Positions 596-45,730 of a stretch of 45,730 nt of DNA are shown one piece after another. Numbering within the stretch: the first letter of the stretch is position 1; each line of letters begins with the position of its first letter. Location: the NCBI GenBank assembly GCA_002394185.1, contig DGTB01000085.1:1-45730 (forward strand), written 5' to 3'. Source of the stretch: Bacteroidales bacterium UBA4347. GTDB lineage: Bacteria > Bacteroidota > Bacteroidia > Bacteroidales > P3. The translations under genes were made by a program, and so were the position numbers. The notes under the pieces are model-generated. The model saw only the letters and a program-made list of their open reading frames with translations. It was not told the origin of the DNA and searched no databases.

Positions 596-630
596 CCATA
601 ACCCATAACCCATAACCCATAACCATTAAG
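596..630 (-). repeat. Heptamer array, 4x CCATAAC plus CATTAAG (minus strand GGTTATG)
   Basis: Direct reading: ccataac x4 then cattaag, 35 nt. Sits between the -7 box at 643..650 and the kal start at 541, so it is predicted to be in the 5' leader. Confidence 0.9.
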
Positions 631-5148: not shown

Positions 5149-6309
5149 TCAATCGGCCTCGTAGATGAGGAGCTGACCGTCGCTCCAGAGGAAGAGCAGG
5201 GGGTCTTTGTCGTGCTTCTTGCTGATCCAGCATCCGCCGCTCTCGGCATCGATGACGAGGTTGCAGTATTTGCGGTGGATCTTCTGCTCGGCAATGAGGT
5301 GGTCTTCCTTGTCGTAGACCTGCAGGTAGGTATCACCGCCGTCGCGGACGATGGCATACATGATGTCGCCGCTGATGCCGTAGGTAATCATATCGACATT
5401 GTAGGTATCCTGGACGTACTGGCGCACCACGACGACATCGGTGACATGGTAGTCATACCAGTAGCTGTTGCAGTAGAGCCAGAAGCCGGGCCAGTACCAA
5501 GGACGGGGAATCAGGGGTTCCCAGAAGATGGGGTGGCAGTGGACCACATAGCCGTGCCAGGGGTGATAGAAGTAGGGAGCGGGATGGATGGGACGGCTGC
5601 TGGGAGGCAGGGGGCCGGGATGGCCGGGGCGGGCATAGCCAGCGCTACGAGCACTGGGATTTCCACTGGGGCGCACATTGCCTGCAGGAGCGCCGCCGGG
5701 ACGAGCACTACCAACATGTGCACCAGAACGTGTAGCAGAAGCATCTCCACGGCCTACACCACCACGGGCGGAGGAAGGACGTCCGGAAGAAGTACGGGAA
5801 TTTGTACCTACACCACTACGTGAGCTCGAGGTTCTGTCGAAGGAACCGCGACCGGCAGGAGTGGCACCGCTACGGCTGGGGGTGGCGGAGCTACTGCGGC
5901 TTGGAGTGCCGTAAGACCCTCGCGAGGATCGGATATTGCTGCGCGTGGCCGAGCTACGACTCGGAGTCGAAGTGCTGCGACTTGGGCTGCTAAAAGAGCT
6001 TCGGCTGGAGCTACTGCTGCGACTCGGGCTGCTAAAAGAGCTTCGGCTGGAGCTACTGCTGCGACTCGGGCTACTGAAAGAGCTTCGGCTGGAACTGCTA
6101 CGACTGCTTCCGCTGAAAGAGCTGCGACTGCTCGAACCGCTGAAAGAGCTGCGACTACTTGAGCTGGGACTCGACGAGCGACTTACAGATGCTGAACTGT
6201 GGCCGCCACCACTGCGGCTACCACCGCCACCGCCTCTTTGGGCCATCGCCGGCGTGAAGCTCAGTGCTAAGCCTACCATTGCCAGTGCAATCAATTTCGT
6301 GGTTTTCAT
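5149..6309 (-). CDS. Secreted Ser/Arg/Gly-rich repeat protein with an aromatic-rich C-terminal domain
   Basis: Signal peptide MKTTKLIALAMVGLALSFTPAMAQ, then about 230 aa of S/R/G low complexity with SSRSSFS(S/G)PSRS repeats, then a W/Y/H/P-rich segment and a globular tail. Start chosen at the ATG at 6309. Confidence 0.7.
   Translation of the reverse strand: MKTTKLIALAMVGLALSFTPAMAQRGGGGGSRSGGGHSSASVSRSSSPSSSSRSSFSGSSSRSSFSGSSRSSSSRSSFSSPSRSSSSSRSSFSSPSRSSSSSRSSFSSPSRSTSTPSRSSATRSNIRSSRGSYGTPSRSSSATPSRSGATPAGRGSFDRTSSSRSGVGTNSRTSSGRPSSARGGVGRGDASATRSGAHVGSARPGGAPAGNVRPSGNPSARSAGYARPGHPGPLPPSSRPIHPAPYFYHPWHGYVVHCHPIFWEPLIPRPWYWPGFWLYCNSYWYDYHVTDVVVVRQYVQDTYNVDMITYGISGDIMYAIVRDGGDTYLQVYDKEDHLIAEQKIHRKYCNLVIDAESGGCWISKKHDKDPLLFLWSDGQLLIYEAD
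5984..6163. repeat. Tandem coding repeats: 3 x 42 bp then 2 x 27 bp
   Basis: Unit gggctgctaaaagagcttcggctggagctactgctgcgactc starts at 5984, 6026 and 6068 (third copy diverged). Unit ccgctgaaagagctgcgact... starts at 6110 and 6137. Confidence 0.85.
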
Positions 6310-6367
6310 ATTGATACTCCTTTCTTTGTTGGTTTTTTTCCTTGTTTGTTTCTGATGCAAAAATAGA

Positions 6368-6423: not shown

Positions 6424-8484
6424 TCAGCCGACACTGCACCCGGGGGTGACGATGTCGCTGGGGGTGAGGAGCACCAGGCGGCCGTCCTTGTCCTCGGCGC
6501 TGAGAATCATGCCCTGGCTTTCGACGCCTTTGAGTTTGCGCGGAGGGAAGTTGGCGATGAAGCACACCTGCTTGCCAACCAGTTTCTCGGGCTCGGGGTA
6601 GAACTTGGCGATGCCGCTGACGATGGTGCGTGTGCCCATGCCGTCCTCGAGCTTGAACTGGAGGAGTTTGTCGGCCTTGGGTACCTTGGTACACTCGAGG
6701 ATGGTGCCTACGCGGATGTCCATGCGGCCGAAGTCGTCGATGGTGACGGCTGACTTGACCTCGGCGGGTTTCCATGCGTTGAGCTCGTTTTGGGCCTTGG
6801 TGGCTTGCAACTTATCGACTTGAGCCTGGATGGTCTCGTCGCCGATTTGCTCGAAGAGCAGCTCGGGCTGGTCAATCTGGTGGCCTTCCTGCAGCAGGTC
6901 GGCACGTCCGGCATCCTTCCATCCCATGGCGGGGAGGTTCATGATGCGGTGCATCTTGTCGGCCGTGAAGGGCAGGAAGGGGGCGCAGAGGATGGCCAGG
7001 TTGGCGCAGATTTGCAGCGAGAGGTTCATCACCGTGGCGGTGAGCTCGGGGTCGGTCTTGACGAGCTTCCACGGCTCGCGGTCGGTGAGGTACTTATTGC
7101 CCAGGCGTGCCAAGTTCATCATTTCGGCGAGGGCCTCGCGGAAGCGGTAGGTCTCGATGCTGCGGCCGATGCGCTCGGGGAAGGTAGCAAGTTCTTTGAC
7201 CACCTCTTCTTCCTGGGCCGACAATTTGCCCATGGCAGGCACCTTGCCGCCGTAGAACTTGTGTGTCAGCACGAGGGTGCGGTTGACGAAGTTGCCGAGG
7301 ATGGCCACCAACTCGGAGTTGTTCTTAAGCTGGAAGTCCTTCCAGGTGAAGTCGTTGTCCTTGGTCTCCGGGGCGTTGGAGCAGAGGGTGTAGCGGAGCA
7401 CGTCCTGCTTGCCGGGGAAGTCCTTCAGGTACTCGTGCAGCCAGACGGCCCAGTTGCGTGAGGTGCTGATTTTGTCGCCCTCGAGGTTGAGGAACTCGTT
7501 GGCGGGCACGTTGGCGGGCAGGATGTAGGATCCGTCGGCGTGGAGCATGGAGGGGAAGATGATGCAATGGAAGACGATGTTGTCCTTGCCGATGAAATGC
7601 ACCAGCTTGGTGTCCTTGTCTTTCCACCATTTCTCCCAGTCGTCGCCCTTGAGCTGCTTGGTGAAGGAGATGTAGCCGATGGGGGCGTCGAACCATACGT
7701 AGAGCACCTTGCCATCGGCACCCTCGACGGGCACCTTGACGCCCCAGTCGAGGTCGCGCGTGACGGCGCGGGGCTGCAATCCGGCGTCGATCCACGACTT
7801 GCATTGGCCGTAGACGTTGGTCTTCCAGTCGCCCTTATGGCCTTCGAGTATCCACTCGCGCAGCCAGGGTTCGTCCTGGTCCAGGGGGAGGAACCAATGC
7901 TTGGTGTCCTTCAGCACGGGTTTGGAGCCGCTGAGGGCGCTCTTGGGGTTGATGAGGTCGGTGGCGTTGAGGCTGGTGCCGCAGGCTTCGCACTGGTCGC
8001 CGTAGGCGTGCTCGTTGCCGCAATGGGGGCAGGTGCCGGTAATGTAGCGGTCGGCCAGGAACTGCTGGGCCTCTTCGTCGTAGTATTGCTTGGACACCTT
8101 CTCGACGAACTTGCCCTCTTCGTAGAGTTTCTTGAAGTAGGCGGCGGCGGTCTCGTGGTGCTCCTTGCTGGAGGTGCGGCTGTAGATGTCGAACGAGATG
8201 CCCAGTTCGGCGAAGCTGTCTTTGATAATCTTGTGGTAGCGGTCGACGATGTCCTGCGGCGTGACGCCCTCCTTGCGGGCCTTGATGGTGATGGGCACGC
8301 CGTGCTCGTCACTGCCGCCGATGAACATCACATCCTCGCCCTGGGCGCGGAGGTAGCGCACATAGACGTCGGCGGGCACGTAGACGCCGGCCAGGTGGCC
8401 GATGTGCACGGGACCGTTTGCGTAGGGCAGCGCCGAGGTAACGGTGTAGCGGCGGTATTGTTTGTCTTTGTCTGTGTAAACCAT
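6424..8484 (-). CDS. metG: Methionine--tRNA ligase
   Basis: 686 aa with the HIGH motif (PVHIGHLAG), zinc knuckle CPHCG...CEACG, KMSKS-like KISTSRNW, and a C-terminal tRNA-binding (EMAP-like) domain. Confidence 0.95.
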
Positions 8485-8491
8485 TCTGATT

Positions 8492-8567
8492 GTGTTAATG
8501 TGTTAATTCGTTAATGTGTTAGTGGCTTGCGCAAGCATCACTCACGCATTTACACATTTACGCATTC
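8492..8567. repeat. Imperfect long hairpin built from GTTAATG/GTTAGTG-type words
   Basis: gtgttaatgtgttaattcgttaatgtgttagtg, then the perfect palindrome GCTTGCGCAAGC (8525..8536), then atcactcacgcatttacacatttacgcattc. Lies between the stop of 8558..8977 and the metG start. Confidence 0.75.
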
Positions 8568-9049: not shown

Positions 9050-9889
9050 TTAAATCTTCTTAATATGGTATTGGCGGAGGCCCTCGATGGGGTCGGCCAA
9101 CACCCCTTTGATTTCAAGGCCATGGTTCTTGGCGACAGGCTCAATGAGTGTTTTGATGCGCGCAGCAAACCCTCCAACAAGATAGAGCACCATGCAATGG
9201 GAAATCTTTAACAGATGATCCAACTGATAGTTATACCACTCTTCAAGACTGAAAAGAATCTCCGACGAGCAGTAGTCATCGTTAATATGTTCTACAGCAA
9301 ACCTCGCCAGCGACGCCAGGAACCGGTTGGCGTTGGGCTGATGGTAGACAGCGTCAAGAAATTCCTCCCTCGTCATTGGATAAGCATCATGGAATCTGGA
9401 AGATATATTCCTTGGCATACACCCCGAAAGGTAGTCTTGCAGCAGGCGACGACCTACATGGTTGGCCGACCCCTCATCGCCCAGAATGTATCCCGTGCTG
9501 GGCGCCTGATAGGCAATCTGGCGGCCGTCATAGTAGCAGGCGTTGCTGCCCGTGCCGAGGATGCCCACCAGGGCAGGCTGGTCGCCAGCGGTAGCACGGC
9601 AGGCGGCGAGCATGTCGGTCTCGACGTGTATATCGCTTGTTCCAAAGGCTTTAGTGAGCCATGCAGCCACCTTCCTGCGCTGGGCAGGAAGGCCGCAGCC
9701 GGCACCGTAGAAGTGAATTGAAAATTGAAAATTGAGAATTGGAAGTTGCTGGCGCACGGCGGCACAGGCGGCCATGAACTGCTCCTCGCTGGTGAAGTGG
9801 GGGTTCAAACCCTCGGTAACTATCATGTTGCCAGACTCCACCTCCATCCACGTGGTCTTGGTGCTACCGCTGTCGGCTATCAAGATCAT
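9050..9889 (-). CDS. BadF/BadG/BcrA/BcrD-type ATPase, N-acetylglucosamine kinase-like
   Basis: [12 protein letters not shown]...FYGAGC...GILGTGSN...GYILGDEGS motifs. The ATG at 9889 overlaps the pyrD stop (ATGA). The upstream R/H-rich extension in the track is rejected. Confidence 0.75.
9713..9747 (+). repeat. C-free heptamer array inside the nagK-like CDS
   Basis: gtgaatt gaaaatt gaaaatt gagaatt ggaagtt. The coding (minus) strand reads [11 protein letters not shown] just before the FYGAGC motif. Confidence 0.9.
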
Positions 9890-10794
9890 ATGATGCCAAT
9901 AATCTCGTTGATATCGTTGATTCCATGGTTCTTGCACCAAGCCTCCATGCCGTCGATAATCTTGACGGTGACGGCGGGGTCGATGAAGTTGGCGGTGCCC
10001 ACCTCGACGGCCGTGGCGCCGGCCATAAGGAACTCGATGGCGTCCTCGGCGGTGCAGATACCACCCAGGCCCACCACGGGAATCTTCACGGCATGAGCCA
10101 CTTGCCACACCATACGCACGGCCACGGGCTTTACGGCGGGGCCGCTCAGGCCGCCCGTGATGTTGGCCATGCAGGGGCGACGGCGCTCGATGTCGATGGC
10201 CATGCCCAGCAGGGTGTTGATGAGACTCACGCTGTCGGCACCCGCGCCCTCGACGGCTTTGGCTATCTCGGCGATGTTGGTGACATTGGGCGAAAGCTTT
10301 ACTATCAGCGTCTTATGGTACACCTTGCGTACTGCCTCCACCACCTCGGCCGCCATCTCCGGCTGGGTGCCGAAGCCCATGCCGCCGTGCTTGACGTTGG
10401 GACACGAGATGTTCAGTTCGATGGCGGGAATCTTCTCCAGCGCGTCGATCTGCTCGGCCACGGAGCAGTATTCCTCGATGGAGGAGCCGCTGACGTTGAC
10501 GATGATATTGGTGTCTAAATGCTTGATTCTATGATATACTTCGGAGCAGAACTTCTCCACGCCGCCGTTCTGCAGGCCAACGCTGTTGAGCATACCCGAG
10601 GGGGTCTCCACCATGCGGGGATAGGGGTTGCCCTCGCGATGGGTGCCCGTGGTGCCTTTCACCACGAAGCCTCCCAGGCGGTTGAGGTCGATGAAGTCGG
10701 CGAACTCCTCGCCGTAGCCGAAGGTGCCGCTGGCGGTCATCACCGGGTTCTTCAGCTTGAGATTGTGTATCTTGACGTTTAACATTGGTACCAT
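9886..10794 (-). CDS. pyrD: Dihydroorotate dehydrogenase, class 1B catalytic subunit
   Basis: [18 protein letters not shown]...LNISCPNV...LSPNV...GGI motifs. Overlaps the pyrK stop. Confidence 0.9.
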
Positions 10795-11680: not shown

Positions 11681-11752
11681 ATCATCTCCTACGATGGTAG
11701 GAGTTGGTAAGGAGTTGATAAGGACTTGGTAAGGGGTTGGTAAGGGGATAAT
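11681..11752 (+). repeat. Dispersed element, copy 1: 7-bp hairpin plus 11-mer tandem array
   Basis: atcatCTCCTACgatgGTAGGAGttg gtaaggagttg ataaggacttg gtaaggggttg gtaagggg. The core catctcctacRatggtaggagttgg recurs inverted at 19762..19843. Confidence 0.85.
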
Positions 11753-16767: not shown

Positions 16768-16830
16768 GAAAATCGAAAGTGGAAAGTGGATGCCTTGCCT
16801 GAACGGCCAGCACTTCCACTTTCCACTTCC
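16768..16830. repeat. Hairpin built from GAAAGTG heptamers
   Basis: Perfect 14-bp stem AAGTGGAAAGTGGA (16777..16790) / TCCACTTTCCACTT (16815..16828) with a 24-nt loop, between the ppiD-like stop and the M23 start. Confidence 0.85.
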
Positions 16831-16852
16831 CATTGTCAACTATTCTTTCTGT

Positions 16853-19761: not shown

Positions 19762-19843
19762 ATCTCCTTATCATCTCCTTACCAACTCCCACCCAACTCC
19801 TACCCAACTCCTACCATTGTAGGAGATGGTTGGTCGATGGTAA
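19762..19843 (-). repeat. Dispersed element, copy 2 (inverted relative to copy 1)
   Basis: 11-mers ccttaccaact cccacccaact cctacccaact, then the hairpin CTCCTAC catt GTAGGAG (19808..19825). Lies in the divergent cdd / Y-family polymerase spacer. Confidence 0.85.
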
Positions 19844-19933: not shown

Positions 19934-21430
19934 ATGCAGGCCAACCGCACATATATTGCCATCGACCTCAAGTCGTTCTACGCCTCGGTAGAGTGCGTGG
20001 AGCGGGGCCTCGACCCATTGACTACCAATCTGGTGGTGGCCGACGCCAGCCGAACGGAGAAAACCATCTGCCTGGCAGTAACGCCGTCGCTCAAGGCCTA
20101 TGGTATCGGCGGTCGTGCGCGGTTGTTCGAGGTAGTGCAGCGCGTGCGGCAGGTCAACGCCCAGCGGCGGCGCAATGCCCCTGGCTATCAGCTGCAGGGC
20201 GAGGCCACCGACAGTCGTGACCTGGCTGCGCACCCCGAAAAGGCCCTGGGCTATCTGGTGGCGCCGCCTCGCATGGCCTACTATATTGATTATAGCGCCC
20301 GTATCTACAGCATATACCTGAAATACATAGCCCCGGAGGACATCCATGTCTACTCGGTCGACGAGGTGTTCATGGACGTCACCAACTACCTGGGAACATA
20401 CAAGATAACGTCCCATGAACTGGCTCGTCGCATGATTGCTCATGTGCTGCGTGAAACCGGCATCACGGCTACCGCCGGCATCGGCACCAACCTCTACCTT
20501 TGCAAGGTAGCTATGGACATCGTTGCCAAGCATATACCCGCCGACAAAGACGGCGTGCGCATCGCCGAGCTGGACGAAATGAGCTACCGCCGTCTGCTGT
20601 GGAGCCACCGGCCGCTGACGGACTTCTGGCGTGTCGGTCACGGCATTGCGCACAAGCTTGAGGCATGCGGTATGCACACCATGGGCGACGTAGCCAGACA
20701 ATCTATTGATAACGAATCACTACTGTACAAACTCTTCGGTGTCAACGCCGAGCTTCTCATCGACCATGCCTGGGGTTGGGAGCCGTGCACCATGAAGGCC
20801 ATCAAAAGCTACCGTCCGCGCAGCAACTCCTTCAGTTCCGGCCAGGTGCTCTCCGAACCCTATACCTTCAAAAAAGCGCGCGTAGTAATGCGCGAAATGG
20901 CCGACGCCATGGCCCTCAAACTGGTGAGCCTCCGACTGGTGACCAACCAGATTGGCATCTACGTCAACTATGACGCAGAAAGCTTGAAACAAGGTACTTA
21001 CACCGGTGATATTGTGGACGACTACTATGGTCGCAACGTACCCAAACCAGCTCACGCCGGTGCCAACCTCCCCCACCCCACTTCCTCAGCGCGTATCCTC
21101 ACCGAGGTTGTAGTGCAACTCTTTGACCAGTGTGTCAATCCAAAGCTCCTTGTCCGTCGGCTTACCATCACTGTCAATCAAGTGATTGATGAAAACGACA
21201 GCAGTGTCACCCACCCGGTGACGCAACTCGACATGTTCACCGACTATGAACAATTGGAACGCGAGCAGAAGGCCGTGAAGTCCGCCCTCGACAAGGAGCG
21301 GCGCATGCAAGAGGCCGTGCTCAATATCAAGCGCAAGTTCAACAAGAACGCCATTTTCAAAGGCATGGACCTCGAGGAGGGGGCCACCGCCCGCGAGCGC
21401 AACAGCCAGATAGGAGGGCACAAGGCGTAG
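19934..21430 (+). CDS. Y-family DNA polymerase (UvrX/ImpB-like translesion polymerase)
   Basis: YIAIDLKSFYASVECVERGLDP...SVDEVFMDVT motifs; 498 aa. Confidence 0.8.
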   Translation: MQANRTYIAIDLKSFYASVECVERGLDPLTTNLVVADASRTEKTICLAVTPSLKAYGIGGRARLFEVVQRVRQVNAQRRRNAPGYQLQGEATDSRDLAAHPEKALGYLVAPPRMAYYIDYSARIYSIYLKYIAPEDIHVYSVDEVFMDVTNYLGTYKITSHELARRMIAHVLRETGITATAGIGTNLYLCKVAMDIVAKHIPADKDGVRIAELDEMSYRRLLWSHRPLTDFWRVGHGIAHKLEACGMHTMGDVARQSIDNESLLYKLFGVNAELLIDHAWGWEPCTMKAIKSYRPRSNSFSSGQVLSEPYTFKKARVVMREMADAMALKLVSLRLVTNQIGIYVNYDAESLKQGTYTGDIVDDYYGRNVPKPAHAGANLPHPTSSARILTEVVVQLFDQCVNPKLLVRRLTITVNQVIDENDSSVTHPVTQLDMFTDYEQLEREQKAVKSALDKERRMQEAVLNIKRKFNKNAIFKGMDLEEGATARERNSQIGGHKA

Positions 21431-21463
21431 TTAAGAGTTATGAATTAAGAGTTTAGAGTTATG
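21429..21463 (+). repeat. C-free heptamer array filling the polymerase/yolD-like spacer
   Basis: agttaag agttatg aattaag agtttag agttatg. The first unit overlaps the polymerase TAG stop and the last unit supplies the ATG at 21461. Confidence 0.9.
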
Positions 21464-23134: not shown

Positions 23135-23138
23135 CGGA

Positions 23139-23172
23139 GTAGTTAAGTAGACAGTAGTTAAGTAGTTAAGAG
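23139..23172 (+). repeat. GTAGTTAA-type tandem array upstream of aspartate kinase
   Basis: gtagttaa gtagaca gtagttaa gtagttaa gagag. One C in 34 nt. Ends 2 nt before the ATG at 23175. Confidence 0.85.
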
Positions 23173-23174
23173 AG

Positions 23175-24500
23175 ATGAAGGTTTTTAAGTTTGGAGGAGC
23201 ATCGGTCAATAGCGCCGACGCCGTGCGCAACATGGCGCATATCGTGCAAACACACTTGGAATCAGAACCTTTGGTGGTTGTGGTCTCCGCCATGGGCAAG
23301 ACCACCAACCTGCTGGAGAAACTCGTGCCCGGAAGTCCGGAGTGCGAAACGCAAGGCCAGGCCCTGCGCAAGCAGTTGGAGGACTACCACCTTGGCATTG
23401 CCAACGGACTGATTCCAAACGACAAAGAGCTCGTTGGCAAGATTCAGTCCCTGCTGCACGAACTGGACGAGACCATCGCGACGCTGCAGCCCCTGTCGGA
23501 ACATTACAACTACAACTACGACCAGGTTGTCTCCTTCGGCGAACTCATCTCCACCACCATCATCGCGCACTACCTTAACCACCATGGAATCAACACCCAA
23601 TGGGCCGATGCGCGCAAGCTTGTTGTCACCGACAACCACTTCCGCGAAGGGCGTGTGGATTGGACGGAGACGGCCGAGAGGTGGAGGGCGATGAGCGAGC
23701 AATGGAGTACGGAAGGCGGCGCACCGCAGGTGTTGCTGACGCAGGGCTTCATTGCCGGCGCCAAAGAGGAGGATGACAACCTGCAGTTCTCCATCTTCAA
23801 CCTCCAGTTCTCCACCACGACCCTGGGCCGCGAGGGCTCCGACTACAGCGCCGCCATCTTGGCCTACTGCCTTGGGGCCGAAAGCGTTACCATCTGGAAG
23901 GATGTGCCGGGTTTCCTCAATGCCGACCCCAAATTCTTCCCGGACACGGTCAAAATCAACGAGATACCCTACGACGAAGCCATCGAGCTGGCCTACTATG
24001 GCGCTTCGGTCATCCACCCCAAGACCGTCAAACCCCTCCAGAACATGGGCATTCCGCTCTACATCCGCTCTTTTATCCACCCTGAGGCCAAGGGCTCCGT
24101 TATCGGCAACTATCATATTATCAGCCCCGAAACACCGCTGTACATCTTCCGTAACAACCAGATACTGCTCTCCGTCTACCCCCGCGACTACTCCTTCATT
24201 GCCGAGGACAATCTGCAGGTCATCTTCGGCATTCTCAGCAAGATAGGTGTGCGCGTGAACCTGATGCAGAACTCTGCCTTGAGTTTCTCCATCTGCGTGG
24301 ACAACAACCCACAGCTCATCGGAAGGTTGATTGAGGAGTTAAAGAGCATGTTCCGTGTGCGTTACAACGAGAACCTGCAGCTTGTCACCATCCGTTACTA
24401 CACGCAGCAGGTCATCGACCGCATCGTTGCCGGCCGCCCCATCCTCTTGGAGCAGCGCAGCCGCCTCACCGAGCAGATTGTTGTCCCACTGGACAAATAA
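23175..24500 (+). CDS. lysC: Aspartate kinase
   Basis: KVFKFGGASV...VVVSAMGKTT...LGREGSDYSAA, with C-terminal ACT-like repeats. Confidence 0.85.
   Translation: MKVFKFGGASVNSADAVRNMAHIVQTHLESEPLVVVVSAMGKTTNLLEKLVPGSPECETQGQALRKQLEDYHLGIANGLIPNDKELVGKIQSLLHELDETIATLQPLSEHYNYNYDQVVSFGELISTTIIAHYLNHHGINTQWADARKLVVTDNHFREGRVDWTETAERWRAMSEQWSTEGGAPQVLLTQGFIAGAKEEDDNLQFSIFNLQFSTTTLGREGSDYSAAILAYCLGAESVTIWKDVPGFLNADPKFFPDTVKINEIPYDEAIELAYYGASVIHPKTVKPLQNMGIPLYIRSFIHPEAKGSVIGNYHIISPETPLYIFRNNQILLSVYPRDYSFIAEDNLQVIFGILSKIGVRVNLMQNSALSFSICVDNNPQLIGRLIEELKSMFRVRYNENLQLVTIRYYTQQVIDRIVAGRPILLEQRSRLTEQIVVPLDK
23778..23812 (-). repeat. Heptamer-type array inside aspartate kinase
   Basis: Coding strand aacctgc agttctc catcttc aacctcc agttctc encodes NLQFSIFNLQFS, just before the conserved TTLGREGSDYSAA. 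More diverged than the other arrays (3 C on the G-rich strand). Confidence 0.7.
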
Positions 24501-28314: not shown

Positions 28315-29366
28315 CCTTTCGCAAGTTGTAGGAAGGCGTCGCGCACCTCGTTGTCAGACACCGTTATGTCGATGACCGCAGCGCCGGGCTCCTGCAGCAG
28401 CACACAGCGCAGCTCCCCGTCGGCGTTCTTCTTGTCCTGGTGCATCAGGGGAAGCATCTGTTCGATGTCCTTCAAATTGAAAGTGGGTAGTGGGTAGTGG
28501 GTAGTGAGTAGTTGCCCGTTAAGCCACTGGGAGTATGCATCATAGACCTCTTCGGCAAGGCCAAGTTTCTTCACCGAGAGGTACATCGCCACCCGCATGC
28601 CGATGCCTACTGCGATGCCGTGAGGCAGGTGGCGGTAGGCCTCGATGGCGTGGCCGAAGGTGTGGCCAAAATTGAGTATATGCCTGATTCCATGGTCGTA
28701 AGGGTCGTTCCTGACGATACGGTTCTTGATGCGGGCCACCTCCTTCAGTTGAGAATTGAAAACCGAAGATCGGGAATCGTCCACAAGCGTCTGATACAGA
28801 GCGGCATTTGTCACCGCCGCCGTCTTCACCATCTCCATCTGCCCGTTAACGAATTCCTCCCGCGGGAGCGTGTCCAGAAACCCTGGTTCTATGCATATTA
28901 GACTCGCCTGATGGAAGTGGCCTATGCTGTTCTTGATGCCGCCGAAATTGATGGCCGTCTTGCCGCCTATCGAGGCGTCTACCATCGCCAGCAGCGTCGT
29001 CGGCACGTTGATATGGCGGATGCCGCGCTTGAACCCCGCCGCCACATATCCGCCCAGGTCGCAGACACATCCGCCCCCGAGGTTGACGATGACGCTGCCC
29101 GTGTCGGCGCCGCTCTCCAGCAGCGTCTGCCATACCTGCGCCGCCACCTCCAGGCTCTTGCATTCCTCGCCCGCCGGCACCTCGATGAACTCGGCCTCTT
29201 CCAGCGGCCCCACGCTGGTCACCAGCATCGCAAGACATTGCTGGAACGTATTCTCGTCCAGCAGGATAAAGTATCTGGCATCGCGCCACTCCTCCTTGCC
29301 CAGCTCGTCACCGAGCGCCCGGAGGCCACCATAGAGTATTTTCCCATATCTTTCCATATCAGACAT
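28311..29366 (-). CDS. aroB: 3-dehydroquinate synthase
   Basis: GGGCVCDLGGYVAAGFKRGIRHINVPTTLLAMVDASIGGKT...NFGHTFGHAIE. Start at 29366 (MSDMERYG); 29357 is also possible. The longer tracked ORF is rejected. Confidence 0.85.
   Translation of the reverse strand: MSDMERYGKILYGGLRALGDELGKEEWRDARYFILLDENTFQQCLAMLVTSVGPLEEAEFIEVPAGEECKSLEVAAQVWQTLLESGADTGSVIVNLGGGCVCDLGGYVAAGFKRGIRHINVPTTLLAMVDASIGGKTAINFGGIKNSIGHFHQASLICIEPGFLDTLPREEFVNGQMEMVKTAAVTNAALYQTLVDDSRSSVFNSQLKEVARIKNRIVRNDPYDHGIRHILNFGHTFGHAIEAYRHLPHGIAVGIGMRVAMYLSVKKLGLAEEVYDAYSQWLNGQLLTTHYPLPTFNLKDIEQMLPLMHQDKKNADGELRCVLLQEPGAAVIDITVSDNEVRDAFLQLAKG
28479..28513 (+). repeat. C-free heptamer array inside aroB
   Basis: gaaagtg ggtagtg ggtagtg ggtagtg agtagtt. 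The coding (minus) strand reads QLLTTHYPLPTFN. Confidence 0.9.
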
Positions 29367-32070: not shown

Positions 32071-32176
32071 CACCCTCTCCCCGCGCCACCGCAGCCCTCG
32101 ACCCTTGCCGCCAACCCGATTCCGGCATACAAGTAGTACCCAACTCCGTGACAACGAGCAGATAACTCCCTTTGGG

Positions 32177-32209
32177 TTTCGGTTGAGTTTCGGTTCGGTT
32201 TCGGTCTCC
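32177..32209. repeat. 3 x 11-nt tandem repeat TTTCGGTnnnn
   Basis: tttcggttgag tttcggttcgg tttcggtctcc. Confidence 0.85.
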
Positions 32210-33396: not shown

Positions 33397-33909
33397 ATGA
33401 ATACAAAAAAGAATATACGACGGTTTTGGTTGTGGGTAGGCATACTCTTGCTCGTCGACCTCGCGGTCATTACCCTTTGGAAGCGCTGGTACTGGTTCTT
33501 CCCCTCGCGCGAGGTCAGCGAAGTCTACACCCGCTATGCCGGCAACGAGGACTTCAACGTCGTCTTCCTCAAGGACTTCAAAATCAACGACACCGTCTTT
33601 GTCGACGTCACCCTCCTGGAAGCCAAAAACGACTCCTCCTGGGTCCGTATTAAAGACGATTTCAACATTACACCCATCCCCGACGAAATACTGTCTGTGG
33701 CCACAAATGATATCGTCAGTTTCTGGTATGCTCCCAAGAAAGACTACTCCCTCCCTATGGATTCATGTCTAACCAACAATGATATTATAGCAATCTCATA
33801 CCTGAAGAGAGAGATTGCTGTTTTCCACATTGAATCAGAAAAACAAATCAGACGCATTCTTGAATATCAAATATCAAATAACAAAAACCAAACAAATGGA
33901 AATGAATAA
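33397..33909 (+). CDS. Membrane-anchored hypothetical protein
   Basis: 170 aa with an N-terminal TM segment (FWLWVGILLLVDLAVITLW). Lower GC than the core genes. Confidence 0.6.
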   Translation: MNTKKNIRRFWLWVGILLLVDLAVITLWKRWYWFFPSREVSEVYTRYAGNEDFNVVFLKDFKINDTVFVDVTLLEAKNDSSWVRIKDDFNITPIPDEILSVATNDIVSFWYAPKKDYSLPMDSCLTNNDIIAISYLKREIAVFHIESEKQIRRILEYQISNNKNQTNGNE

Positions 33910-34594: not shown

Positions 34595-35908
34595 ATGAGA
34601 CATCTAAACAAACTTGCCCTCGCCGCCTGCCTCCTCTTGTCCTATGGCATCGCGCTGGGACAGACCGGGCAGGGACTGCCAAGTCCGGCATTCCATTGGA
34701 AGTGCCCGTCCGCCGATTCGGCGCTGAACTTCCATCCGGCGACCACCGCCCCACTCCTTTTCGACAGCATCCCCTATGCCGAAGACTACACCGTTGTGGT
34801 GGTCTATAAGCCCGTCGTGGACACCGAAGCCACTGTGTGGCAGCTCGTCTTCGCCGACAGCATTGGTCGTGGGCTGACCACCGAGCGTATCCTCTCCGAC
34901 AGCACAGCCATCCGCTTTGCTGAACATACCGACCGCAAACCGGTGATCCATACCTTGCGCCAGTCCGCCCCCGACTCCTCTTCTGCCTACGCCAGCCTGT
35001 CTGTCGGCGACGGAAACATCAAGGTCTCCGAGGTGCTGTACTTCAATCACCGTCTTGGCAACGCCGTCCTACGCAGGGTGCAGTCCATCCTGGCCATCCG
35101 TTATGGCATCACCCTCGGCCCTGTCGACTATATTGGAGTCAATGGCCACCGTGTATGGCAACATCGGCTCGACAGTGCCGTGTTCCACCACCGCATCACG
35201 GGTATTGGCAGCGACACCTCCCTCCATCAATTGTGCAGCCGCTCCGAAATGGACGGCTCCGTCGTCACCCTCTCTGCCGACAGCCTCCCGCAAGGGGCTT
35301 ACCTTCTCATTGGCGACAATGATGCACCTCTGACATTCCTGCAGGAGGCCTCTGACATTGAAACGCTCGCCCGCCAATGGCGCGTTCAGAGTTCAGGTAC
35401 AGAGGATGTCGCGTTTTCTCTTGCATTTGATACGCGGAGTATTCCCGTTCCCACCGACAGCCTTGTGCTGTTACTCGATGGTGGCATCATCCTCCCATCG
35501 GTTGTGACTGCCAACGAAGTACGTTTCAATAATCTATGGCTCTCGTCCGACACCTGTACCTTTACCCTCGCTCGCGGTGCCTTCTTGTGGCAGCTGGCGC
35601 AATCCGGCTCCAAGGGCGCCAAAGGTCACAGTGGCAAAGAGTATGACGAACATGAGAAAGTTTCAATTTTCAATTCTCAATTTTCACTTTATCCGAATCC
35701 CACCACTGGCCATTTCAACATCGAGGTGTCCGGTGCCCGTCAGGTACAGGTAACGATATATAACCTACAGGGTAAAGTAATCGCCACCTACGGCGACAAT
35801 AACCGTGACCACTATTGCTTCGAAGGTTCCCTGCCAACAGGCAATACCTACTTCGCCACCATCGCCACCGAGAGTGGCAGTCAGACCATAAAACTCATCG
35901 TAAAGTAA
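34595..35908 (+). CDS. Secreted protein with a T9SS C-terminal sorting domain
   Basis: Signal peptide. C-terminus LYPNPTTGHFNIEV...VTIYNLQGKVI...YFATIATESGSQTIKLIVK is a typical Por/T9SS CTD. The passenger domain is unassigned. Confidence 0.8.
   Translation: MRHLNKLALAACLLLSYGIALGQTGQGLPSPAFHWKCPSADSALNFHPATTAPLLFDSIPYAEDYTVVVVYKPVVDTEATVWQLVFADSIGRGLTTERILSDSTAIRFAEHTDRKPVIHTLRQSAPDSSSAYASLSVGDGNIKVSEVLYFNHRLGNAVLRRVQSILAIRYGITLGPVDYIGVNGHRVWQHRLDSAVFHHRITGIGSDTSLHQLCSRSEMDGSVVTLSADSLPQGAYLLIGDNDAPLTFLQEASDIETLARQWRVQSSGTEDVAFSLAFDTRSIPVPTDSLVLLLDGGIILPSVVTANEVRFNNLWLSSDTCTFTLARGAFLWQLAQSGSKGAKGHSGKEYDEHEKVSIFNSQFSLYPNPTTGHFNIEVSGARQVQVTIYNLQGKVIATYGDNNRDHYCFEGSLPTGNTYFATIATESGSQTIKLIVK
35658..35692 (-). 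repeat. Heptamer array in the passenger-CTD linker of the T9SS protein
   Basis: Coding strand aagtttc aattttc aattctc aattttc actttat encodes KVSIFNSQFSL. The reverse complement is gaaaatt/gagaatt, the same words as at 9713..9747. Confidence 0.9.
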
Positions 35909-45517: not shown

Positions 45518-45552
45518 GGGTTATGGGTTATGGGTTATAGGTTATAGGTTAA
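45518..45552 (+). repeat. C-free heptamer array GGGTTAT x3 plus AGGTTAT plus AGGTTAA
   Basis: Direct reading. Begins 9 nt upstream of the mntP start and uses the same word as 596..630, but in the opposite orientation relative to the adjacent gene. Confidence 0.9.
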
Positions 45553-45730
45553 AGTAAAATTAGTTTAATTAGTTTAATTCGTAGTCCTCTTAGTTCTGAA
45601 AGTCCTAAGAGCGTATTTCGTAGTTTATTATATATGTAATGACGAAAGAGATGTTTTTGTTCCATAATTCAAGGAAAAACAGAACACATTCTTGGTAGTT
45701 TCACGAAAAAGAAGTATCTTCGCAACATCT

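What the first reader, a model, noticed from the sequence alone, without database searches (positions are those of the whole stretch)
23778..23812. Aspartate kinase carries the same FSIFNxQFS-type peptide from a heptamer or 21-nt periodic tract
Seen: NLQFSIFNLQFS is encoded just upstream of TTLGREGSDYSAA. The DNA is cagttctccatcttcaacctc followed by cagttctcc, a 21-nt period. The peptide is in register with ILNFQFSI (nagK-like) and SIFNSQFS (T9SS protein), three unrelated proteins. This copy is more GC-adapted, with 3 C on the G-rich strand, which may mean it is older and ameliorated.
Basis: seen in the sequence. Interest (0 to 1): 0.65.

Follow-up and report, generated by a model that had tools for sequence, protein, structure and literature searches.

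The report
Fossil heptamer repeat inside aspartate kinase
A 12-residue stretch in the aspartate kinase of a rumen Bacteroidales bacterium is the decayed, codon-adapted remnant of a 7-base tandem DNA repeat that landed in frame in a protein loop, in a lineage where such repeats still expand, shrink and replace one another inside ordinary genes.

Summary
Window 23778-23813 encodes NLQFSIFNLQFS directly before the conserved TTTLGREGSD motif of a 441-aa aspartate kinase (AK). It matches the translation of (AATTTTC)n in 10 of 12 residues. The DNA keeps a 21-nt period (14/15) but no 7-nt period (11/29).

A related AK (P0027) has a perfect (AATTCTC)5+A, 36 nt, at the same position and phase, encoding NSQFSILNSQFS. 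Two other relatives carry (CACTCTC)5 and (CACTTCC)n there. About 101 of the 120 closest homologues, and all solved AK structures, have only a 4-5-residue loop.

The window copy uses only genome-preferred codons. Its core, QFSIF, shows no amino-acid change in 10 of 15 pairs despite heavy synonymous change.

"Older" is not shown. The live tract in the NagK-like gene persists in orthologues down to 55-62% identity. The AK copy has stopped being a repeat; it is not demonstrably older.

Context: heptamer repeats are the dominant non-triplet repeat class in this lineage. Indels between close strains come in 7-, 21- and 63-nt steps. A conspecific contig carries an insert-less AK allele inside a recombination-like patch.

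Best reading: slippage-born repeat, frame-filtered and loop-tolerated, then fossilised. It is a new variant of the known heptanucleotide repeat phenomenon.

The parts
23175..24500 (+). Aspartate kinase gene, 441 aa, intact ORF
   Evidence: Pfam AA_kinase 2.3e-40. Homologous to solved AKs 2cdq, 3c1m and 2j0w. A metatranscriptome contig covers 23500-23849 with 1 mismatch.
23778..23813 (+). Fossil heptamer tract, 36 nt, encoding NLQFSIFNLQFS. It has the same position, length and phase as the live (AATTCTC)5+A in P0027.
   Evidence: It matches (AATTYTC)n at 25/36 in phase 0. Lag-21 identity is 14/15. All codons are genome-preferred. The core QFSIF has pN=0 in 10 of 15 pairs.
23760..23777 (+). Acidic leader AKEEDD. 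It is also extra relative to short-loop AKs and is shared as AKE/AKG.. by the six other insert-bearing AK proteins (P0001, P0003, P0004, P0005, P0006, P0008).
   Evidence: Alignments. Its origin is not resolved.
23814..23855 (+). Conserved motif TTTLGREGSDYSAA that anchors the insertion site
   Evidence: Invariant in 50 homologues. Aligned to TTLGRGGSD of the solved AKs.
23450..24150 (+). Divergent patch (cassette) around the insert. A conspecific contig, L246, is 97-100% identical on both sides. Inside the patch it falls to 48/80 and 44/61, and it lacks the insert.
9716..9741 (-). Live (AATTYTC)3.7 tract encoding [11 protein letters not shown] in a BadF/NagK-like ATPase gene
   Evidence: Orthologues carry (TTTTCAA)4, (TTTCAAC)4 or (ATTCAAC)3-4 at the same site with the same length.
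35661..35690 (+). Live (TTTCAAT)4.3 tract encoding VSIFNSQFS, in the linker before the T9SS C-terminal sorting domain
28746..28766 (-). Decayed tract of the same family, TCG GTT TTC AAT TCT CAA CTG = SVFNSQL, in aroB (3-dehydroquinate synthase), hot spot A
   Evidence: L087 and L238 have a (CCACTYT)n tract encoding STLHFPLST at the homologous site.
28482..28512 (-). Live (ACTACCC)4.4 tract encoding LLTTHYPLPT in aroB, hot spot B. Sister genomes L001 and L002 have (TTTCAAT)4, encoding [11 protein letters not shown], at the same length.
23138..23170 (+). Intergenic (AGTAGTTA)4 tract ending 4 nt before the AK start codon
   Evidence: The equivalent tract differs by a 7-nt indel between L087 and L238.

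Best explanation
The segment is the fossil of an in-frame heptanucleotide simple-sequence repeat of the (AATTYTC)n family, 36 nt long (5 units plus 1 nt). It sits in the hairpin loop between the GFIxG strand and the TTTLGREGSD motif of aspartate kinase.

Proposed life cycle (marked 'shown' or 'inferred'):
1. This rumen Bacteroidales lineage generates and resizes 7-nt tandem repeats at a high rate. The mechanism is most simply replication slippage in 7-nt steps. The unit-step indels are shown; slippage as their cause is inferred.
2. Inside genes, only the G-free sense orientation survives, because it creates no TGA or TAG stop codons. Length changes must also restore the frame, in 21-nt steps or compensated pairs. 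Because 7 and 3 share no factor, the tract is read in all three frames in turn and gives a 7-residue periodic peptide (QFSIFNF). Shown from sequence.
3. Tracts persist only where the protein tolerates extra residues, in loops and linkers. Their units turn over while length is held. Shown at four sites.
4. In the window's AK lineage, point substitutions moved every codon to the genome-preferred synonym and changed two F to L. This destroyed the 7-nt periodicity and so ended slippage. Shown.
5. The core QFSIF then came under purifying selection as part of the protein. Weakly shown, on 5 codons only.
6. The insert-bearing segment moves between related lineages by homologous recombination, so alleles with and without the insert coexist in one species. 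Shown as a mosaic pattern; recombination is inferred.
For: Same site, length and phase. L085/L086 carry ACC (AATTCTC)5 A ACT ACT ACC. L087 carries (CACTCTC)5 C. L090 carries ATCTCTA (CACTTCC)3 CACTTTC C. All three are exactly 36 nt before the TTT codons. The window segment matches at 25/36 in that same phase.

It is an insertion. Searches show its absence elsewhere.

Codon adaptation..

Selection. The core has pN=0 while pS is 0.4-1.2. The rest of the tract has pN 0.3-0.4. The rest of the gene has pN 0.10-0.15.

A lineage-wide heptamer process. The window has 6 period-7 tracts and essentially none of period 5, 6, 8 or 9. L053 has 8, L061 has 9, and L087 and L090 have 4 each. Most other Bacteroidota AK loci have about 0.

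Unit-step indels between strains about 98% identical (L087 versus L238). Intergenic indels are +7 and +7. A tract inside a U32 peptidase gene is 75 nt in one strain and 138 nt in the other, which is +63 nt, or 9 units, or 21 codons.

Unit turnover at fixed length. This is seen in the NagK-like gene and at aroB site B between genomes 96-97% identical. Both aroB alleles occur in one rumen sample.

Mosaic AK allele..

Prior knowledge. Heptanucleotide repeats are the most abundant long simple-sequence-repeat class in many bacteria, and slippage has been proposed as the cause (Mrazek 2007, as summarised in PMC4679880 and PMC4692102). A heptamer repeat translates to a 7-residue repeat only in its stop-free orientation (PMC4679880).
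Against: The window's AK DNA is no longer a heptamer repeat, so its derivation is inferred from homologous sites and is not read directly.

The NJ tree scatters insert-bearing AKs across three places. A single origin therefore requires recombination or poor tree resolution.

Three different heptamers of identical length and phase at one site are not a simple prediction of random slippage.

The two parallel F-to-L changes and the 14/15 identity at lag 21 suggest a late 21-nt duplication. Independent decay of each unit would not be expected to give that pattern.

No length polymorphism was seen at the AK site itself, and only assembled contigs were available, not raw reads.

The AF2 model gives no confident structure for the insert: pLDDT is below 50 for residues 195-215. 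A structural role for QFSIF is therefore unsupported by modelling.
Confidence: 0.8

Rival explanations
1. A dedicated writing process installs or overwrites heptamer arrays at particular sites. Candidates are a templated polymerase or reverse-transcriptase-like activity, or a tiny mobile element. Under this reading the AK segment is one decayed product of that process, not of plain slippage.
For: A small repertoire of units recurs at many loci and in many genomes: GARAATT, GRRAGTG, GGGTAGT, GGGTTAT and GGKTTMA.

Thirteen of 15 short-period tracts in the window essentially lack G or C on one strand, including the intergenic ones.

Different units occupy the same site at identical length and phase.

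One heptamer array is replaced wholesale by another between genomes 96-97% identical.

Depth at the tract spikes 20- to 60-fold in rumen metagenomes.
Against: There are no terminal inverted repeats, target-site duplications or conserved flanks.

The indels between close strains are plain unit-step changes.

The aroB replacement is mostly explained by a 21-nt contraction of one tract plus a 21-nt expansion of a TTTCAAT seed already present in the flank. That accounts for 15 of the 19 differences.

No candidate enzyme was identified, but none was searched for.

The (AATTYTC)4 tract also occurs in cyanobacteria, Acidobacteria and Patescibacteria.
Confidence: 0.1
2. Convergent selection for a functional peptide motif, QFSIFN. 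Under this reading the three proteins acquired the same peptide because it does something, such as targeting or binding, and the DNA repeats are incidental.
For: The core QFSIF is conserved at the amino-acid level across six AK lineages despite synonymous change.
Against: The three proteins show different registers of the same periodic string.

The live copies are plain DNA repeats built from rare codons.

Unrelated peptides (HSPLSTL, LPTSHFP) from other heptamers occupy the same AK loop.

The same peptide family appears in cytoplasmic enzymes, in a secreted T9SS protein linker and upstream of start codons.
Confidence: 0.03
3. Chance resemblance. A simple 21-nt duplication of ordinary coding sequence in AK happens to look like the heptamer peptide.
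For: The DNA shows only a 21-nt period and no 7-nt period.
Against: The segment matches the periodic peptide at 10 of 12 residues, and only three loci in the window reach 8 of 12.

It matches in one phase, and that is the phase of the live tract in P0027.

Degenerate intermediates occur in P0003, P0005, P0006 and P0008.
Confidence: 0.03

Closest known systems
Long simple sequence repeats with heptanucleotide units (Mrazek, Guo & Shah 2007, as summarised in PMC4679880 and PMC4692102); cyanobacterial STRR heptamers
   Same: Tandem 7-nt units form the dominant long-repeat class in particular bacterial lineages. Copy number varies between relatives. Some occur as inverted pairs. Slippage is the proposed cause.
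   Different: Those repeats are described as mainly intergenic, and repeats whose unit length is a multiple of three are the class expected in genes. Here heptamers sit in frame inside housekeeping enzymes (AK, aroB, Dus, a U32 peptidase, a NagK-like gene), turn over at fixed length, and in AK have fossilised into ordinary coding sequence. The four literature searches made here found no description of this in rumen Bacteroidales.
TAACTGA direct repeats of Beggiatoaceae, Cyanobacteria and a few Bacteroidetes (MacGregor 2015, PMC4679880)
   Same: Heptamer direct repeats often lie just upstream of start codons. That paper makes the explicit point that one orientation gives stop codons and the other a 7-residue repeat (LSVISYQ). 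The window's tract 23138-23170 ends 4 nt before the AK start codon.
   Different: The units differ, and here there are many units where that system has one favoured unit. That work proposes a regulatory role and horizontal spread. It does not describe decay into, or selection on, protein sequence.
Rickettsia palindromic elements and similar small repeats inserted in frame in protein genes (recalled from memory, not checked here)
   Same: Short repeated DNA is tolerated in frame inside conserved proteins, at surface positions, and persists as extra peptide segments.
   Different: Those are 100-150-bp palindromic mobile elements with a defined sequence. Here the DNA is a tandem 7-nt array with no palindrome or element ends.
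Phase-variable contingency loci (coding simple sequence repeats that switch genes on and off)
   Same: Slippage-prone repeats lie inside ORFs.
   Different: No frame-shifting length variants were seen in contigs from several samples. The affected genes are housekeeping, and the observed changes are in frame.

Membership tests
Aspartate kinase (amino acid kinase family, PF00696) | AA_kinase domain above Pfam's gathering score | tested here: met
   139.3 bits against a cut-off of 24.9, over residues 2-299.
Aspartate kinase (amino acid kinase family, PF00696) | Conserved TTLGR(G/E)GSD motif and full-length homology to solved aspartate kinases | tested here: met
   The motif lies at 23814-23843. 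phmmer gives E about 1e-41 to 2cdq, 3c1m and 2j0w, covering residues 3-387/406.
Aspartate kinase (amino acid kinase family, PF00696) | Catalytic activity and allosteric regulation | not testable with these tools
   Indirect evidence only: an intact ORF, pN/pS of about 0.2 outside the insert and a metatranscriptome contig.
Heptanucleotide simple sequence repeat | Three or more head-to-tail copies of a 7-nt unit at the DNA level | tested here: not met
   At AK 23778-23813, lag-7 identity is 11/29 and TRF is silent. The feature is met at the homologous site in L085, L087 and L090 and at window 9716-9741, 35661-35690 and 28482-28512. The AK segment is therefore a derivative of such a repeat and not a member.
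Heptanucleotide simple sequence repeat | Copy-number change in unit steps between close relatives | tested here: inconclusive
   Met for other tracts in L087 versus L238: +7, +7 and +63 nt. Not observed at the AK site, and only contigs were available.
Phase-variable contingency locus | Frame-shifting repeat-length variants that switch the gene off | tested here: not met
   No indels at the tracts in own-gene contigs from 4 + 4 + 4 runs. Raw reads were not available, so rare variants cannot be excluded.
In-frame palindromic or MITE-like insertion element | Terminal inverted repeats or hairpin, and conserved element ends | tested here: not met
   Only weak inverted matches of 72-80% were found, and no element ends. 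By contrast, L214 does carry a true palindromic insertion at the NagK-like tract site.

The most novel reading that the evidence does not exclude
Rumen Bacteroidales may have an active, lineage-specific process that writes and rewrites three-letter (G-free or C-free) heptamer arrays at fixed length in loop-coding segments of ordinary genes. This would be a natural generator of protein-loop variation. Its products are sometimes captured and fixed, as in this aspartate kinase. Plain polymerase slippage would not then be the whole story.
Probability: 0.1. Interest if true: 0.85.

Novelty: new variant of a known kind. Interest (0 to 1): 0.55.

Why it matters
The case shows, stage by stage and at homologous sites, how a non-triplet DNA repeat can become permanent protein sequence in an essential enzyme:
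- a live repeat in P0027;
- degenerate intermediates in P0003, P0005, P0006 and P0008;
- a codon-adapted fossil with a conserved core in the window.

This is a concrete route for the birth of loop insertions in bacterial proteins.

It also flags a set of uncultured rumen Bacteroidales in which 7-nt repeats are unusually active inside genes. Alleles with different repeat units, or with no insert at all, coexist in one population.

Two practical consequences follow. These tracts break metagenome assemblies, because contigs end at them. They also create mosaic genes that can mislead gene trees.

The natural allele pair, window versus L246, has identical flanks and differs by the insert-bearing patch. 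It is a ready-made experiment on what such an insertion does to an allosteric enzyme.

Tried and rejected
- Profile search with loop-containing AK segments (A2). It returned only short AK fragments, all with the short loop. This confirms the short loop as the norm but gave no new long loops.
- DNA pattern for a 12-codon loop between GGT ACN and TTTLGREG. It found 0 hits in GTDB species representatives (the pattern was verified on local loci). It found 1 hit in JGI metagenomes. That hit, L238, is the same lineage as L087, so it adds no new unit types at the AK site.
- AlphaFold2 on a 50-sequence alignment. Mean pLDDT was 71 and the insert scored below 50, so there is no structural conclusion. 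No fold search was run on it.
- NJ tree of 121 AKs. Deep branches are short and the insert is patchily distributed. The tree cannot by itself separate one origin plus recombination from several origins.
- Read-level population analysis. All matching runs are held as contigs only, so slippage frequencies cannot be measured.
- Literature. Nothing was found on coding heptamer repeats in Bacteroidales. Lin & Kussell 2012 (PMC3315296) does not mention heptamers.
- Rejected: chance low-complexity match.
- Rejected: MITE-like element.
- Rejected: assembly artefact. The same tracts occur in independent MAGs and Logan contigs.
- Considered and left open: whether the acidic leader AKEEDD is a decayed inverted copy of the tract. 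The only support is a palindrome of 72% complementarity over 18 nt.

Full report
**1. What is at the coordinates**

Window 23778-23813 reads AAC CTG CAG TTC TCC ATC TTC AAC CTC CAG TTC TCC and encodes NLQFSIFNLQFS. It lies in ORF 23175-24500 (+), 441 aa. This ORF is an aspartate kinase (AK): Pfam AA_kinase scores 139 bits, and phmmer gives E about 1e-41 to the solved AKs 2cdq, 3c1m and 2j0w. The peptide directly abuts the invariant TTTLGREGSDYSAA motif.

The DNA has two 17-nt copies at spacing 21, 94% identical. Self-identity is 14/15 at lag 21 but only 11/29 at lag 7, and TRF reports nothing here.

The window comes from an uncultured rumen or gut Bacteroidales bacterium. Its closest MAGs are CALGCG01 and CAMOOR01, and it occurs in bovine gut and rumen metagenomes.

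**2. The link to the other two proteins is real**

(CAATTTT)3 translates as QFSIFNF. Seven and three share no factor, so a heptamer array is read in all three frames in turn and produces a 7-residue period.

Two true AT-rich arrays of this family lie inside ORFs:
- 9716-9741 on the - strand, [11 protein letters not shown], in a BadF/NagK-like ATPase (Pfam 27.8 bits, below the cut-off of 31.5);
- 35661-35690 on the + strand, VSIFNSQFS, in the linker just before a T9SS C-terminal sorting domain.

Among about 91,000 six-frame 12-mers, a match of 8/12 or better to the periodic peptide occurs only at these three loci. The AK copy scores 10/12. At the DNA level the AK segment matches (AATTYTC)n at 25/36 in one phase and at 16 or fewer in the other six.

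**3. It is an insertion derived from a heptamer array**

Among the 120 closest AK homologues, about 101 have a 4-5-residue loop (T-SD-LK-TTT). Seven carry QFSIF-like inserts. Twelve carry other long loops. GTDB relatives L003-L009, 66 AK fragments from other Bacteroidota and all solved AKs have the short loop.

DNA fetched for the long-loop homologues is decisive. Each of the following has exactly 36 nt before the TTT codons, with units in the same phase:
- P0027: ACC (AATTCTC)5 A ACT ACT ACC, encoding NSQFSILNSQFS;
- P0101: (CACTCTC)5 C, encoding HSPLSTLHSPLS;
- P0072: ATCTCTA (CACTTCC)3 CACTTTC C.

The window's 36 nt occupy the same position and phase. Members of the window's group (P0003, P0004, P0005, P0006, P0008) show progressively degenerate versions written in GC-rich codons.

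**4. Amelioration and selection**

Genes in the window prefer CAG (78%), TTC (83%), ATC (61%), AAC (71%), and TCC over TCA (24% against 6%). The AK segment uses only preferred codons. The live tracts use the rare ones. GC is 0.50 in the AK segment against 0.19-0.20 in the live tracts.

Across six insert-bearing AKs, the 5-codon core QFSIF has pN=0 in 10 of 15 pairs while pS is 0.4-1.2. The rest of the tract evolves fast (pN 0.3-0.4), compared with 0.10-0.15 for the rest of the gene. This is weak evidence, on five codons, that the core has been co-opted.

AlphaFold2 gives no confident structure for residues 195-215 (pLDDT below 50). A metatranscriptome contig covers the insert with one mismatch.

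**5. 'Older' is not established**

In the NagK-like gene, the 30 nt before FYGAGCG form a heptamer array in orthologues from 95% down to 55-62% identity. Length is the same in all, but the units differ:
- (TTYTCAA)4 in the window, L211 and L212;
- (TTTTCAA)4 in L220;
- (TTTCAAC)4 in L213;
- (ATTCAAC)3-4 in L218.

L216 and L217 are non-repetitive there. That site is therefore at least as old as the AK insert and is still a clean repeat.

The T9SS tract is shared down to 80% identity.

The distinction is between a live tract, kept uniform, and a fossil that has lost periodicity. It is not a distinction between young and old.

**6. The wider process**

Period-7 tracts dominate the non-triplet repeats in the window: 6 tracts of three or more copies, against about 0 for periods 5, 6, 8 and 9. 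The same holds in some other rumen Bacteroidales loci. L053 has 8, L061 has 9, and L087 and L090 have 4 each. Most other Bacteroidota AK loci have almost none.

Many tracts lie inside genes, including aroB, a U32 peptidase, GH97 and a second site in AK that encodes EIENLKLKIEN from (GAAAATT)n. In that second site one G-to-T change removes a TGA stop codon.

L087 and L238 are about 98% identical. Their indels are largely unit steps: +7 and +7 in intergenic tracts. The U32 coding tract is 75 nt in one and 138 nt in the other, a difference of 63 nt, or 9 units, or 21 codons.

In aroB, the window and L001/L002 are 96-97% identical, yet one 60-nt block falls to 41/60. There (ACTACCC)3 in the window is replaced by (TTTCAAT)4 in the others at equal length. 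A 21-nt contraction, plus a 21-nt expansion of the TTTCAAT seed already present in the flank, explains 15 of the 19 differences. Both alleles occur in one rumen sample.

Thirteen of 15 short-period tracts in the window essentially lack G or C on one strand. In genes this is explained by stop-codon avoidance. In intergenic DNA it is unexplained.

(AATTYTC)4 occurs in more than 120 GTDB contigs. Of the 80 rows displayed, about half are rumen or gut Bacteroidales, and cyanobacteria, Acidobacteria and Patescibacteria are also represented.

**7. The cassette**

P0002 is identical to the window's AK except for residues of about 150-225. There it is 42-45% identical to the window, resembles P0007 and lacks the insert.

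Its contig, L246, is collinear with the window over 6.8 kb at 97-100% nucleotide identity. The exception is 23450-24150, where identity falls in a gradient to 48/80 and 44/61. This is the signature of homologous recombination importing, or removing, the insert-bearing segment within one species.

The segment upstream of the insert (xRWxAxxExW..G.PQV) is shared by the insert-bearing AKs at 57-65% identity, against 27-47% for the rest. This explains why the gene tree scatters them.

**8. Comparison with what is known**

Heptanucleotide long repeats and their proposed origin by slippage are established (Mrazek 2007, via PMC4679880 and PMC4692102). The 7-residue translation in the stop-free orientation has also been noted (PMC4679880).

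I found no earlier description of three things:
- frequent in-frame residence of heptamer arrays in housekeeping enzymes of rumen Bacteroidales;
- unit turnover at fixed length and phase;
- a documented series from live repeat to fossil.

The AK segment fails the test for being a repeat today. It passes as a derivative of one.

**9. Verdict**

The segment is a fossil heptamer repeat in a loop of a functional-looking aspartate kinase.

Confidence is 0.8. Interest is moderate (0.55). Novelty: a new variant of a known kind.

The main open point is why different heptamers occupy one site at identical length and phase. A dedicated writing process is not excluded (about 0.1).

Noticed in passing
window 28482-28512 (-), aroB; L001 and L002 at the homologous site: Genomes 96-97% identical across aroB carry different heptamer arrays of equal length at one site. 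The window has (ACTACCC)3, encoding LLTTHYPLPT. L001 and L002 have (TTTCAAT)4, encoding [11 protein letters not shown]. Both alleles are present in one rumen run, X24.
   Followed up: yes
window 28746-28766 (-), aroB: A fourth member of the QFSIFN family in the window: SVFNSQL, from TCG GTT TTC AAT TCT CAA CTG. L087 and L238 have STLHFPLST from (CCACTYT)n at the homologous site.
   Followed up: partly
window 596-624, 8491-8521, 11695-11745, 16775-16832, 19762-19815, 21429-21461, 23138-23170, 32172-32205, 33863-33885, 45518-45579: There are many intergenic short-period tracts (periods 7, 8 and 11). Thirteen of 15 have 0-1 G or C on one strand. Some units recur in opposite orientation: ATAACCC at 596 and GGGTTAT at 45518, and 11-mers at 11695 and 19762.
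   Followed up: partly
window 16775-16790 and 16814-16832: (GAAAGTG)2 and (CACTTYC)3 form an inverted pair around a 23-nt spacer, between the M23 peptidase and SurA-like genes. It is a hairpin built from heptamer repeats and could be a terminator. Similar inverted pairs occur in L061 at 1354-1416 and 7710-7772.
   Followed up: no
window 23138-23170: An (AGTAGTTA)4 tract ends 4 nt before the AK start codon. The equivalent tract differs by a 7-nt indel (AGTAGAC) between L087 and L238. This recalls the start-codon-proximal TAACTGA repeats of PMC4679880.
   Followed up: partly
L087 14533-14607 versus L238 243-380: The coding (TCATCAC)n tract in a U32 peptidase is 75 nt in one strain and 138 nt in a strain about 95-97% identical over this gene. 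The difference is 21 codons, and TCCCCAC variant units are interspersed.
   Followed up: yes
L214 (CAMOOR010000063.1), NagK-like gene at the tract site: A perfect palindrome is inserted in frame where the heptamer tract sits (CACCCCTGCCCCTCTCCCAAGGAGAGGGG...CCCCTCTCCTTGGGAGAGGGGCAGGGGTG). It looks like a small hairpin element of a different kind.
   Followed up: no
L246, near window 21701 (N-terminus of Dus): A conspecific contig has 66 extra in-frame nucleotides in the tRNA-dihydrouridine synthase gene. They include a period-10 tract, (CCYTTCACKC)n.
   Followed up: no
window 5973-6093: A 42-nt-period tandem repeat with 2.9 copies and 96% matches (TRF score 221), flanked by 12- and 24-nt periodic sequence, inside a long - strand ORF (5149-6360). 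It was not examined.
   Followed up: no
L087 10501-10521 and L090 1011-1045 (AK gene): A second heptamer tract lies in the same variable AK segment: (GAAAATT)n in the stop-prone orientation. One G-to-T change removes the TGA, and the tract encodes EIENLKLKIEN.
   Followed up: partly
window 9050-10108 (-): The listed ORF starts at a GTG 73 codons upstream of [12 protein letters not shown]. Orthologue matches mostly begin near residue 73, so the real start is probably the later Met.
   Followed up: no
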